NCBI RefSeq assembly: GCF_022846255.1
Contig: NZ_AP025682.1
DNA from: Escherichia coli
GTDB lineage: Bacteria > Pseudomonadota > Gammaproteobacteria > Enterobacterales > Enterobacteriaceae
DNA: 64,000 bases
Strand: one strand, 5' to 3'
Positions 30,108 through 44,848 of this stretch are shown piece after piece (within the stretch, counting starts at the first letter, position 1; every line of letters starts with the position of its first letter). The notes beneath the pieces were generated by a model that ran no database searches, had not been told where the DNA came from, and saw only the letters and a program-made list of their open reading frames with translations. A program made the position numbers and the translations under genes.

Positions 30108-31247
30108 TTATTGTCCTGCGAGTTGCTGAAGGGCTGTGATGACGCGGTCGGCATCGGCGGTAGTCATATCCGGGAACAGCGGCAACGAACAGATGCGTTC
30201 GCTATTCCATTCGGTATTCGGTAACGACAGCGTGGGAAAACGCTCGCGATAATATTTTTGTGTGTGAGCGGCGCGGAAATGTAACCCGGTACCAATACCT
30301 CTTTCTTTTAACGCTTCCATCAACGCATCGCGACTGATACCACAACGTTGTTCATCGACACGAATAATAAACAGATGCCAGGCGTGAACGTGCGGCCAGG
30401 CGGGAAGGCTTAATGGCTGAAAAGGGAGAGCTGCCAGTGCTTGTTGATATTGCAGAGCAATTTCGCGCCGACGGGTGTTGAGGTGCTCTAATTTGGCTAA
30501 CTGGGTCAGGGCAATCGCGGCGTTAATATCGGTCAGATTATACTTATAGCCCGGCGTTAAGACTTCAGCTTGCGGTGCACGGCCCCAGGTTTGTCTGTCA
30601 TAGGCATCGACACCCAGACCGTGAAATTTTAGCATCCGTAGCTGGCGGGCAAGGTTTTCATTATCTGTAACAATCAGGCCACCTTCCGCACAGGTAATAT
30701 TTTTGATGGCGTGAAACGAAAAAATAGCGGTACCTTTTGCACCAATATGTCGCCCTTTGTAATACGTACCGACGGCATGGGCAGCATCTTCGATAACTGC
30801 GATGCCGTAACGTTCGCCAATGGCGCGAATGGCGTCAATATCTGCTGGCGCACCGGCATAATGCACCGGAATGATGGCTTTAGTGCGTGGCGTAATGGCT
30901 GCTTCGATCGTTTCAGGAGTGACCATCAGCGTATCGCGGTCGACATCCACCATTACCGGCGTTGCACCCAACAAGGAGATCATATTGAGGGTTGAAACCC
31001 AGGTCAGGGAAGGCGTAATCACTTCATCGCCCTTGCCAATTTCCAACGCCATTAGCGTGATATGCATTCCGGCGGTGGCTGAACTGACCGCGATGGCATG
31101 CTGATTTCCCGTCAACTGGCAAAAGGCTTGTTCAAGCGCGTGATTCTTCGGACCGGTTGTGATCCAACCGGATTCGAGAACCTCTTTAACTGCAGCGAGT
31201 TCCTCCACGCCCATTGCTGGTCGCGAAAAAGGCAAAAATTCTGACAT
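30108..31247 (-). CDS. arnB: UDP-4-amino-4-deoxy-L-arabinose aminotransferase ArnB
   Basis: ORF 30108..31280; in-frame ATG at 31247 (MSEFLPF...) has a GGAAGG Shine-Dalgarno; 31265 is an alternative start. Confidence 0.88.
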
Positions 31248-31345
31248 TGCTTTTCCTTCCGCCATTGAATACCTGTCCACTTATATTTGCTATAAAGAGT
31301 GTTGTGTATATTTTGCCATTTGGAGCAAAATTTTAAGGATAGAAT

Positions 31346-31362
31346 ATTAACTTAACCTTAAG
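31346..31362 (-). promoter_or_regulatory. Candidate PmrA (BasR) box in the arnB-ais divergent promoter region
   Basis: minus-strand CTTAAGgttaaGTTAAT resembles the YTTAAK-N5-YTTAAK direct repeat, about 85-100 bp upstream of arnB. Confidence 0.45.
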
Positions 31363-31554
31363 AAACTAATATTAGACGTAAATATTGAAATTTTTATATT
31401 TTTTCTTATTTAGGCTTTGCATTTGGCAAAATTTTGAGGCATTTTGCCGGCATCGCAGGATTTTTAATATTACACCAACTGCTAATTATCGCCAGAAATG
31501 TCGCTCAATTTCACGGTAATTGTCTGGTTGCGCTTGTCTATAGGTGGAGTTTAC

Positions 31555-32157
31555 GTGTTAGCTTTTTGCCGCTCTTCGTTGAAGTCAAAAAAATATTTCA
31601 TCATTTTACTGGCGCTCGCTGCAATTGCCGGACTGGGTACTCATGCCGCCTGGAGTAGCAATGGTTTGCCACGTATCGACAATAAAACGCTGGCCAGACT
31701 GGCACAGCAGCATCCGGTTGTCGTTTTGTTTCGCCATGCTGAACGTTGCGATCGTTCAACCAACCAATGCTTGTCAGATAAAACAGGTATTACGGTTAAA
31801 GGTACCCAGGATGCCCGTGAACTGGGCAACGCTTTTAGTGCTGATATCCCTGATTTCGATCTTTATTCCAGTAATACCGTCCGGACCATTCAGTCGGCGA
31901 CCTGGTTTTCAGCGGGTAAAAAGCTGACGGTAGATAAACGACTTCTTCAGTGCGGTAATGAGATTTATAGTGCAATTAAGGACTTACAAAGCAAAGCGCC
32001 TGATAAAAATATCGTTATTTTCACCCATAATCATTGCCTGACATATATTGCTAAAGATAAGCGTGATGCGACATTTAAACCTGATTATCTGGATGGTTTA
32101 GTCATGCATGTGGAAAAAGGCAAAGTTTATCTGGATGGGGAATTCGTTAACCACTAA
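31555..32157 (+). CDS. ais: Ais / PmrG, putative lipopolysaccharide core heptose(II)-phosphate phosphatase (histidine-phosphatase family)
   Basis: ORF 31498..32157; GTG at 31555 with GGTGGAG Shine-Dalgarno gives 200 aa with signal peptide; RHAER motif. Confidence 0.85.
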
Positions 32158-32621: not shown

Positions 32622-32899
32622 AGGGGTATTCCTTATAAATAAAAAGAAACCATGAGAATACGGTAACTCAGAAATATGTGAAAGTGACAGTAATCTCTTT
32701 TGCGATTATAACTGCACTTATTATTATTTTTGTGTGTATCGATAAAGTATGTTTATTTTTTCGGCGTTTAATTATTTAAGAAGTATTTAGTTACAATAAG
32801 TGACTAGATCCCTTTTTTCGCTCATTGAATCCTCTGTGCCAGGCAGTACAATCCCGCAGCTTTGGGAATTTTGATTTATTGCTTGTGGGAGAGGGGAAA

Positions 32900-44738: not shown

Positions 44739-44848
44739 TTTAATTTCTGAATGTTTTCTTAACATCGCGGCAACTCAAGAAACGGCAGGTTCTCCCACTG
44801 AATCAGGCTGTTAATCATAAATAAGACCACGGGCCACGGAGGCTTTCA

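What the first reader, a model, noticed from the sequence alone, without database searches (positions are those of the whole stretch)
31248..31554. Divergent arnB/ais control region with a candidate PmrA box
The spacer between arnB (minus) and ais (plus) contains CTTAAGgttaaGTTAAT on the arnB strand (31346..31362), matching the PmrA/BasR direct-repeat half-site pattern at a position suited to activating arnB. ais is also a known PmrA-regulated gene, so a single site or adjacent sites could coordinate both lipopolysaccharide-modification units.
Basis: partly seen in the sequence, partly recalled or inferred. Interest (0 to 1): 0.3.

Follow-up and report, generated by a model that had tools for sequence, protein, structure and literature searches.

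The report
Known PmrA/BasR box of arnB promoter
The motif is real and is the well-known binding site through which the E. coli regulator BasR (PmrA) switches on the arn lipid A modification operon, so the finding is correct but ordinary; whether the same site also drives the neighbouring gene ais is plausible but untested here.

Summary
The window is E. coli chromosome. The spacer between arnB (minus strand, ATG 31247) and ais (plus strand, GTG 31555) carries CTTAAG-GTTAA-GTTAAT on the arnB strand at 31362..31346, as reported.

The loose YTTAAK-N5-YTTAAK pattern is no rarer than chance. Stricter tests are decisive:
- The Salmonella-verified form (CTTAAG-N5-NTTAAT) occurs once in 64 kb.
- A weight matrix built only from non-Escherichia arnB promoters ranks this site first (22.2 bits; next best 14.2).
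- Only 4 of 20,000 shuffles of the spacer reach that score.

The box lies exactly 10 nt upstream of a -10 hexamer (TAAAAT, 31335..31330). This box / 10 nt / TANNNT composite occurs upstream of arnB in 69 of 80 Enterobacterales loci and nowhere in 1.03 Mb of control sequence. That is the published PmrA promoter architecture, in which the box replaces the -35 element. The box is invariant in about 99.6% of complete E. coli genomes, and a 2023 paper already marks it.

No second significant box exists for ais. Sixteen ais-bearing loci share the box and a promoter-like TTGCNT-17-CATTTT element. The gaps between them are mostly 54, 44 or 33 bp, and the box persists where arn has been lost. Shared control is therefore plausible but inferred.

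Verdict: already known, low interest.

The parts
31346..31362 (-). PmrA/BasR box, CTTAAG-GTTAA-GTTAAT. Half-site 1 is 31362..31357, the spacer 31356..31352, and half-site 2 31351..31346.
   Evidence: Sequence read. The strict pattern is unique in the window. Weight-matrix score is 22.2 bits, rank 1 in 64 kb, with shuffle p about 2e-4. A 37-mer around it is 100% identical in 5,374 of 5,398 E. coli genomes. It is orthologous to the Salmonella and Klebsiella boxes.
31336..31345 (-). Fixed 10-nt spacer (ATTCTATCCT) between the box and the arnB -10 hexamer.
   Evidence: The spacer is exactly 10 nt in all 69 loci that carry the composite, although 9-11 nt was allowed.
31330..31335 (-). Predicted arnB -10 hexamer, TAAAAT. 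The transcription start is predicted at about 31319-31323; it was not measured.
   Evidence: TANNNT occupies this position in 69 of 80 loci. The natural E. coli variant M114 has TAGAAT here with the box unchanged.
31245..31247 (-). arnB start codon (379-aa form), preceded by an AAGGA Shine-Dalgarno-like sequence. The upstream in-frame ATG at 31263-31265 is the K-12 annotated start.
31363..31416 (.). 54-bp linker between the box and the candidate ais promoter. It is 17% G+C and carries A/T tracts.
   Evidence: One search gives composition. One search shows that its sequence is the least conserved part while its length is fixed at 54 bp in 6 taxa and 44 bp in 7 loci.
31417..31445 (+). Candidate ais promoter (inferred): -35-like TTGCAT (31417-31422), a 17-nt spacer, and -10-like CATTTT (31440-31445). 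The start is predicted at about 31452.
   Evidence: TTGCNN-17-CATTTT is present in 16 of 16 ais-bearing loci, and CATTTT is 100% conserved. The core is identical in 5,382 of 5,394 E. coli genomes, against 2,918 of 3,903 for a control 37-mer in the ais leader. No transcription start data were available.
31555..31557 (+). ais start codon (GTG; 200-aa Ais, a lipopolysaccharide core heptose(II)-phosphate phosphatase).
31324..31383 (.). Stretch identical to the 60-mer that a published gel-shift assay showed to be bound by phosphorylated QseB. It contains the PmrA box.
   Evidence: The oligonucleotide sequence in PMC10729948 matches the window exactly at 31324-31383.

Best explanation
The 17-bp element at 31346-31362 is the BasR (PmrA) box of the E. 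coli arnBCADTEF promoter.

Mechanism for arnB. A phosphorylated BasR dimer binds the two tandem half-sites head-to-tail. The box occupies the place of a -35 hexamer, exactly 10 bp upstream of the -10 hexamer TAAAAT. From there the dimer contacts sigma-70 RNA polymerase and activates leftward transcription of arnB. This is activation at the -35 position, in the PhoB/OmpR-family manner. The sequence, the geometry, the orthology and the conservation are shown here. Binding and activation are taken from published work on the Salmonella and Klebsiella orthologues and on E. coli arnB reporters.

Second, inferred layer for ais. The same single box also serves ais. It lies 54 bp upstream of a conserved weak sigma-70-type promoter (TTGCAT-17-CATTTT). 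Its centre is at about -98 from the predicted ais start, in reverse orientation, across an AT-rich linker. I put about 0.5 probability on this direct shared-site action. The 0.93 confidence below refers to the arnB role.
For: Statistics:
- Exact match to the verified Salmonella form CTTAAG-N5-XTTAAT (PMC3973317).
- Best weight-matrix site in 64 kb at 22.2 bits, reached by 4 of 20,000 shuffles.

Geometry and orthology:
- The composite box + 10 nt + TANNNT lies upstream of arnB on the coding strand in 69 of 80 Enterobacterales loci and occurs 0 times in 1.03 Mb of control sequence. Six of the 11 misses carry near-consensus versions.
- Same position as the Salmonella box CTTAATGTTAATTTAAT.
- Klebsiella and Raoultella loci carry CTTAATATTATCCTAAG. 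This is the box that was footprinted (PMC2565834) and solved with PmrA and RNA polymerase, described as replacing the -35 element (PMC10570014).

Conservation within E. coli:
- The box plus 10 nt on each side is identical in 5,374 of 5,398 genomes, while the surrounding 801 bp is 95-99% identical in most genomes.
- A variant strain changes the flanks but not the box.

Regulation, from the literature:
- arnB-lacZ is constitutively on in basS/basR suppressor mutants (PMC8151780).
- The same motif is marked in the arn promoter of an enteropathogenic E. coli strain (PMC10729948).

For ais:
- Published papers treat ais/pmrG as PmrA-activated and show it co-regulated with arn.
- Only one significant box exists in the spacer.
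- All 16 ais loci carry the box and TTGCNN-17-CATTTT. The gaps are 54 (6 loci), 44 (7), 33, 41 and 46 bp.
- The box is kept upstream of ais in 5 loci that lost arnBCADTEF and in 1 locus where a different gene faces ais.
Against: - No binding or transcription start data for E. coli could be retrieved here. The arnB start is predicted from geometry only.
- PMC10729948 proposes that PmrA blocks RNA polymerase at this promoter, and shows QseB~P, not PmrA, shifting the 60-mer.
- For ais, the -35/-10 assignment is an inference from conservation, and CATTTT and TTGCAT are weak matches to consensus.
- Two of the five gap classes (41 and 46 bp) are 2-3 bp out of phase.
- A box at -77 to -98 in reverse orientation is an unusual place for an OmpR-family activator.
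- In the arn-less loci the leftward -10 is retained too. Retention of the box there therefore cannot be credited to ais alone.
Confidence: 0.93

Rival explanations
1. The box controls only arnB. ais is PmrA-dependent through something else: an unrecognised weak or half site near its own promoter, an indirect route, or relief of silencing of the AT-rich spacer without any stereospecific contact.
For: - The box centre is 77-98 bp from the predicted ais start and in the opposite orientation.
- Gaps of 41 and 46 bp break strict helical phasing.
- The box predates ais: it is present in almost all arnB loci, most of which have no ais.
- The spacer is 28-33% G+C, typical of silenced DNA.
Against: - No second site beats chance. 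The best other site in the spacer scores 10.9 bits at 31463-31479, a score reached in 14% of shuffles, and it is not conserved outside Escherichia.
- The conserved TTTAAG next to CATTTT has no partner half-site.
- The linker length is held at exactly 54 or 44 bp across divergent taxa although its sequence drifts.
- The box stays with ais after loss of arn.
Confidence: 0.4
2. The element is mainly a QseB site, or a shared QseB/PmrA site. Physiologically relevant arn control in E. coli would then come from QseB, with PmrA occluding the promoter, as modelled in PMC10729948.
For: - The 60-mer at 31324-31383 is shifted by QseB~P.
- arnB and eptA are up in a pmrA qseC double mutant.
- QseB and BasR are both listed in the OmpR family; that they are close paralogues is from my own knowledge.
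Against: - The 10-bp box-to--10 geometry is conserved in 69 of 80 loci. It is identical to that of the PmrA transcription activation complex. That is the signature of an activator that replaces the -35 element, not of an occluding repressor.
- arnB-lacZ is activated by constitutive basS/basR alleles.
- The gel shift did not separate the PmrA box from the proposed QseB motif on the same oligonucleotide.
Confidence: 0.1
3. Chance occurrence of TTAA-rich sequence in an AT-rich intergenic region, with no regulatory role.
For: The loose consensus with one mismatch occurs 3 times in the window against 2.5 expected. The spacer is AT-rich and full of TTAA/ATATT repeats.
Against: - Weight-matrix rank 1 in the window, with shuffle p about 2e-4.
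- Conserved position and spacing in 69 of 80 loci against 0 hits in 1.03 Mb of control.
- Near-invariance in 5,374 of 5,398 E. coli genomes.
Confidence: 0.01

Closest known systems
Salmonella enterica pbgP (pmrH/arnB) PmrA box in the pmrG-pbgP intergenic region
   Same: - Same two genes in the same divergent arrangement.
- The box is on the arnB strand, 10 nt from a TANNNT hexamer (TAGGGT in Salmonella).
- Same 5-bp spacer sequence, GTTAA.
- Same downstream ais-side element, TTGCTT-17-CATTTT.
   Different: - The half-site letters differ: CTTAAT/TTTAAT in Salmonella against CTTAAG/GTTAAT here.
- The gap from box to ais-side promoter is 44 bp in Salmonella and 54 bp in E. coli.
- The primary footprinting paper (Wosten & Groisman 1999, recalled from memory) could not be read here.
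Klebsiella pneumoniae pbgP pmra-box (box1; crystal structure 4S05 and the cryo-EM PmrA transcription activation complex)
   Same: Two hexamers 5 bp apart, bound head-to-tail by a PmrA dimer that recognises the TAA cores. The box overlaps or replaces the -35 element. The 10-nt distance to the -10 is seen in the Klebsiella and Raoultella loci (PMC3973317, PMC10570014).
   Different: - Half-site 2 is CCTAAG in Klebsiella and GTTAAT here.
- Klebsiella has an additional PhoP box and a second promoter (PMC2565834), and no ais next to arnB.
- In E. coli the low-Mg2+ input has to pass through PmrD.
PhoB pho box and other OmpR/PhoB-family promoters activated from the -35 position
   Same: Tandem direct repeats with 11-bp periodicity take the place of the -35 hexamer, roughly 10 bp upstream of the -10. 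The activator contacts sigma-70 region 4 (comparison made in PMC10570014).
   Different: The recognition sequence differs. The PmrA box sits about 4 bp closer to the -10 than the pstS pho box, according to PMC10570014.
Activation from upstream sites that depends on the face of the helix (class I type, e.g. CRP at -61.5/-72.5/-82.5/-92.5); analogy for the ais side only
   Same: The box-to-promoter distance changes mostly in steps of 10-11 bp (33, 44, 54) across taxa.
   Different: This is not shown for PmrA. The box is reversed relative to ais. Gaps of 41 and 46 bp also exist. The comparison rests on my own knowledge of CRP, not on a test.

Membership tests
PmrA/BasR box (pmra-box) | Two hexameric half-sites of the YTTAAK type (verified Salmonella form: CTTAAG and XTTAAT) as a direct repeat separated by 5 bp | tested here: met
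   CTTAAG-GTTAA-GTTAAT at 31362..31346. The definition is as quoted in PMC3973317 and PMC10729948.
PmrA/BasR box (pmra-box) | TAA cores in both half-sites, the bases contacted by the PmrA DNA-binding domains | tested here: met
   Both half-sites carry TTAA. The contact description comes from PMC10570014.
PmrA/BasR box (pmra-box) | The box overlaps or replaces the -35 element of the activated promoter, on the strand of the activated gene | tested here: met
   The box ends 10 nt upstream of TAAAAT on the arnB strand, with no separate -35. The same geometry is found in 69 of 80 orthologous loci and 0 times in 1.03 Mb of control. The transcription start itself is predicted, not measured.
PmrA/BasR box (pmra-box) | Positional orthology to an experimentally footprinted PmrA site | tested here: met
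   Klebsiella-type loci carry CTTAATATTATCCTAAG at the same position. This equals the footprinted K. pneumoniae box TCTTAATATTATCCTAAGC. The Salmonella locus L081 has CTTAATGTTAATTTAAT at the same position.
PmrA/BasR box (pmra-box) | Binding by phosphorylated PmrA/BasR in vitro or in vivo at this E. coli sequence | not testable with these tools
   No footprint or ChIP data for E. coli could be retrieved. Only QseB~P binding to the 60-mer is documented.
PmrA/BasR box (pmra-box) | BasS/BasR-dependent expression of the downstream gene | not testable with these tools
   Literature only. arnB-lacZ is constitutively active in basS/basR suppressor mutants (PMC8151780). The arn operon is listed under BasR control (PMC4145685).
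Single shared (bidirectional) activator site for divergent genes arnB and ais | Both genes depend on the same regulator | not testable with these tools
   Literature: pmrG (ais) is called PmrA-activated in E. coli (PMC3140997). ais moves together with arn, eptA, ugd and basRS in transcriptomes.
Single shared (bidirectional) activator site for divergent genes arnB and ais | Only one regulator site in the spacer | tested here: met
   In the weight-matrix scan the second-best site in the spacer scores 10.9 bits. That score is reached in 14% of shuffles, and the site is not conserved.
Single shared (bidirectional) activator site for divergent genes arnB and ais | A promoter for the second gene at a constrained distance and helical phase from the site | tested here: inconclusive
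   The conserved TTGCNN-17-CATTTT occurs in 16 of 16 loci. Gaps are 54 (6 loci), 44 (7) and 33 bp, but also 41 and 46 bp. The promoter assignment has no transcription start data behind it.
Single shared (bidirectional) activator site for divergent genes arnB and ais | Loss of the site abolishes regulation of both genes | not testable with these tools
   Requires reporter fusions with box mutations.

The most novel reading that the evidence does not exclude
One PmrA box works as a two-way switch. It replaces the -35 element for arnB. Across a bent, AT-rich linker whose length changes mostly by whole helical turns (33, 44 or 54 bp), it also acts as a remote, reverse-oriented upstream activator (centre at -77, -88 or -98) of a weak conserved promoter for ais. 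ais would have captured a pre-existing arnB box when it inserted between nudI and arnB. The box-plus-ais module, with its leftward -10 still intact, then survived as a unit in Citrobacter rodentium-like and Intestinirhabdus genomes that deleted the whole arn operon.
Probability: 0.4. Interest if true: 0.3.

Novelty: already known. Interest (0 to 1): 0.12.

Why it matters
The arn operon adds 4-amino-arabinose to lipid A and is a main route to polymyxin and colistin resistance, so its switch is medically relevant. That switch is already well characterised. This analysis adds three things:
- It confirms that the E. coli site follows the same strict box / 10 bp / -10 rule as 69 of 80 Enterobacterales arnB promoters.
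- It argues against the repressor model put forward for this promoter in 2023.
- It gives a concrete, testable proposal for how the heptose phosphatase gene ais is tied to the same site.

None of this opens a long-standing question.

Tried and rejected
- **Loose consensus scan** (YTTAAK-N5-YTTAAK, one mismatch). It is uninformative, with 3 hits against 2.5 expected. I replaced it with the strict form and a weight matrix.
- **Second PmrA site for ais.** The best candidate, TTTAATATTACACCAAC at 31463-31479 (10.9 bits), is at chance level and is Escherichia-only. The conserved TTTAAG next to CATTTT has no partner hexamer 11 bp away on either strand.
- **An ais promoter immediately beside the box.** The TAGACG-16-TATATT match at 31373..31400 is not conserved in other ais loci. 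No TANNNT lies 10 nt from the box on the ais side.
- **An alternative ais promoter** using TTTGCC/TAATAT downstream of CATTTT. Its spacing varies from 14 to 16 nt between taxa, so it is less likely than the fixed 17-nt element.
- **Known RNA families in the spacer.** None found.
- **Measured transcription start sites.** The Cappable-seq supplement held here is truncated and has no entries near the locus.
- **Primary papers.** Wosten & Groisman 1999, Marchal 2004, Aguirre 2000, Tamayo 2002 and Nishino 2006 are not held. No paper in the library mentions an ais or pmrG promoter.
- **The small gene pmrR as the reason the leftward promoter survives in arn-less genomes.** Rejected: pmrR is not annotated at this locus in K-12, and no such ORF is found.
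- **E. coli-only repeats in the spacer.** These are GCAAAATTTTAAGG / GCAAAATTTTGAGG and the inverted repeat GGCAAAAT / ATTTTGCC. They are not conserved beyond close relatives.

Full report
**What is there.** The window is E. coli chromosome. The stretch 31000-31800 matches 5,418 of 5,426 complete E. coli genomes, and the annotated features under it are arnB and ais. arnB lies on the minus strand. Its ATG is at 31247 for the 379-aa form. An upstream in-frame ATG at 31265 is the K-12 annotated start. ais lies on the plus strand and starts with GTG at 31555. The spacer is AT-rich, 28-33% G+C.

**Is it more than chance?** Written loosely (YTTAAK-N5-YTTAAK, one mismatch), the motif is not: 3 hits in 64 kb against 2.54 expected. 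The sequence does, however, fit without mismatch the narrower description of the experimentally verified Salmonella boxes quoted in PMC3973317. That description is half-site 1 CTTAAG, half-site 2 XTTAAT, 5 bp apart. This form occurs once in the window against 0.00 expected.

I then built a weight matrix from 36 distinct boxes found upstream of arnB in non-Escherichia genomes only. The site scores 22.2 bits, rank 1 of about 128,000 positions. The next best scores 14.2 bits. Only 4 of 20,000 dinucleotide-preserving shuffles of the spacer reach 22.2 bits.

**Anatomy on the arnB side.** Immediately downstream of the box on the arnB strand come 10 nt (ATTCTATCCT) and then TAAAAT (31335..31330). There is no separate -35 hexamer.

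I fetched 80 arnB loci across Enterobacterales. I scanned the 500 bp upstream of arnB on the coding strand for [YTTAAK-N5-NYTAAN] + 9-11 nt + TANNNT.
- 69 of 80 loci have the composite, always with exactly 10 nt.
- The remaining 1.03 Mb of those loci, both strands, has none.
- Six of the 11 misses carry near-consensus versions with the same spacing. Most of the rest are endosymbionts, metagenome-assembled genomes, or loci with too little upstream DNA.

The box varies by lineage: CTTAAGGTTAAGTTAA[T/C] in Escherichia, CTTAAGGATAAATTAAC in many Citrobacter, and CTTAAT-N5-CCTAAG in Klebsiella and Enterobacter. The Klebsiella and Raoultella version, CTTAATATTATCCTAAG, is the sequence footprinted by PmrA (PMC2565834; PMC3973317). 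It was also used for the PmrA-DNA crystal structure and the cryo-EM transcription activation complex. Those authors describe the pmra-box as replacing the -35 element (PMC10570014). The Salmonella locus has CTTAATGTTAATTTAAT at the same position, followed by 10 nt and TAGGGT.

The E. coli element is therefore the positional orthologue of characterised PmrA sites and has their geometry. With the -10 at 31335..31330, the arnB start is predicted at about 31319-31323 and the box spans roughly -39 to -23. This is a prediction; I could not obtain start-site data.

**Constraint within E. coli.** A 37-mer centred on the box is 100% identical in 5,374 of 5,398 complete genomes. The surrounding 801 bp is only 95-99% identical in 4,501 of 5,418. 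A control 37-mer in the ais leader is found in only 3,903 genomes and is identical in 2,918. One variant strain (M114) changes the -10 to TAGAAT and alters the upstream flank, but leaves the 17-bp box untouched.

**Prior knowledge.** The motif has already been pointed out in the E. coli arn promoter. PMC10729948 marks the PmrA consensus 'with a slight modification'. Its gel-shift 60-mer is identical to window 31324-31383. PMC2565834 surveys PmrA boxes in pbgP promoters of enteric species including E. coli. arnB-lacZ is constitutively active in basS/basR suppressor mutants (PMC8151780).

PMC10729948 shows QseB~P, not PmrA, shifting the oligonucleotide, and proposes that PmrA occludes RNA polymerase. 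The strictly conserved 10-bp box-to--10 geometry argues instead for the canonical activator role. QseB may well share the site.

**The ais side.** The literature treats ais/pmrG as PmrA-activated in E. coli (PMC3140997). ais falls and rises together with arn, eptA, ugd and basRS (PMC4145685; PMC13405929).

In the spacer I find no second significant box. The next best site, TTTAATATTACACCAAC at 31463-31479, scores 10.9 bits. That score is reached in 14% of shuffles, and the site is confined to Escherichia.

ais has a narrow distribution: Escherichia, Salmonella, some Citrobacter, and Intestinirhabdus. Most arnB loci have the box but no ais. In many Citrobacter, nudI directly precedes arnB. The box is therefore ancestral to arnB, and ais arrived next to it later.

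I assembled 16 ais-bearing loci. Apart from the box, one element between the box and ais is common to all 16: TTGCNN, exactly 17 nt, then CATTTT. In the window these are TTGCAT at 31417-31422 and CATTTT at 31440-31445. The core of this element is identical in 5,382 of 5,394 E. coli genomes. I read it as a weak sigma-70 promoter with a start near 31452. This is an inference.

The gap between the box and the -35-like hexamer is 54 bp in 6 loci, 44 bp in 7, and 33 bp in 1. It is 41 and 46 bp in one locus each. The linker sequence itself drifts, with a majority-base fraction of about 0.7 against 0.92-0.96 for the box and 1.0 for CATTTT. The linker is 17% G+C with recurring A5 and T4-5 tracts. Length steps of 10 and 21 bp suggest a face-of-the-helix constraint, with the box centre at -98, -88 or -77. 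The 41- and 46-bp cases weaken this, and the number of independent length changes is small.

**Natural deletions.** In five loci the whole arnBCADTEF operon is absent and ais follows menE or pmrD. These are Intestinirhabdus alba, Citrobacter rodentium, a contig labelled C. freundii, and two assembly contigs. In C. tructae, ais faces a 486-aa PMT-family gene instead of arnB. All six keep a full box at the usual distance from TTGCNN-17-CATTTT. That fits a role of the box for ais. These loci also keep a TANNNT hexamer exactly 10 nt from the box on the leftward side, with different sequences in each. So the leftward promoter is conserved too, and I cannot attribute retention of the box to ais alone.

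**Conclusion.** It is the known BasR/PmrA box of the arn promoter, acting from the -35 position in the PhoB/OmpR-family manner. The suggestion that one site coordinates both genes is consistent with everything I could compute, but it rests on a predicted ais promoter and suggestive spacing. I put it at about even odds against a separate or indirect route. Novelty: already known. Interest: low.

Noticed in passing
L084 2334-2350, L085 2381-2397, L086 2332-2348, L092 2347-2363, L093 2337-2353: Five genomes have lost the whole arnBCADTEF operon: Intestinirhabdus alba, Citrobacter rodentium, a C. freundii-labelled contig and two assembly contigs. All keep the PmrA box and also a leftward TANNNT hexamer exactly 10 nt from it (TAGAAT, TAATAT, TATATT, TAGTTT, TAATAT). 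The leftward transcript would run only about 70-100 nt into the menE/pmrD terminator hairpin, and the sequence in between is not conserved. Why the leftward promoter is kept is unexplained.
   Followed up: partly
L087 820-2350: In Citrobacter tructae, ais is divergent from a 486-aa PMT-family (ArnT-like) glycosyltransferase gene, not from arnB. The same box followed by 10 nt and TACTCT faces that gene, so the PmrA-controlled promoter appears to have been re-used for a different gene.
   Followed up: no
L004 about 2680-2990 (between the box and arnB): Citrobacter amalonaticus has an insertion of about 200 bp between the arnB promoter and the arnB start codon, which puts the box 327 nt from the ATG. 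From memory of the ERIC consensus, it resembles an ERIC/IRU repeat (GTGACTGGGGTGAGCG ... CTTGAAGTATGACGAGTATAGCC); no comparison was run.
   Followed up: no
window 44747-44763 (+): The second-best PmrA-matrix hit in the 64 kb is CTGAATGTTTTCTTAAC (14.2 bits). It lies in the glpA-glpT divergent spacer on the glpT strand, just downstream of a CRP-like TGTGC-N6-TCACA. It could be chance, since about one such hit is expected per window. PMC13405929 does report glpA/glpC/glpD down when the BasR regulon is up.
   Followed up: partly
window 31325-31338 and 31426-31439; 31425-31432 and 31441-31448: A 14-nt direct repeat, GCAAAATTTTAAGG / GCAAAATTTTGAGG, lies 101 bp apart: one copy at the arnB -10/start region and one inside the candidate ais promoter. 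An 8-bp inverted repeat, GGCAAAAT / ATTTTGCC, spans the spacer and -10-like hexamer of the candidate ais promoter. Both are confined to Escherichia and close relatives.
   Followed up: partly
window 31363-31416 and the equivalent linkers in L002-L093: The linker between the box and the candidate ais promoter is 17% G+C. In most taxa it carries an A5 tract followed a few bases later by a T4-5 tract (for example GTAAAAAT...TTTT). This may be an intrinsic bend or a binding site for a nucleoid protein.
   Followed up: no
window 31498-31554: An in-frame ATG at 31498 extends the ais reading frame to 219 aa, and some database entries annotate 203-222 aa forms. The GTG at 31555 (200 aa) matches the K-12 annotation.
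   Followed up: no
window 32775-32791 (+): Another one-mismatch match to the loose PmrA pattern, TTTAAGAAGTATTTAGT, lies in the nudI-yfaZ spacer. It scores low with the weight matrix and is probably chance.
   Followed up: partly
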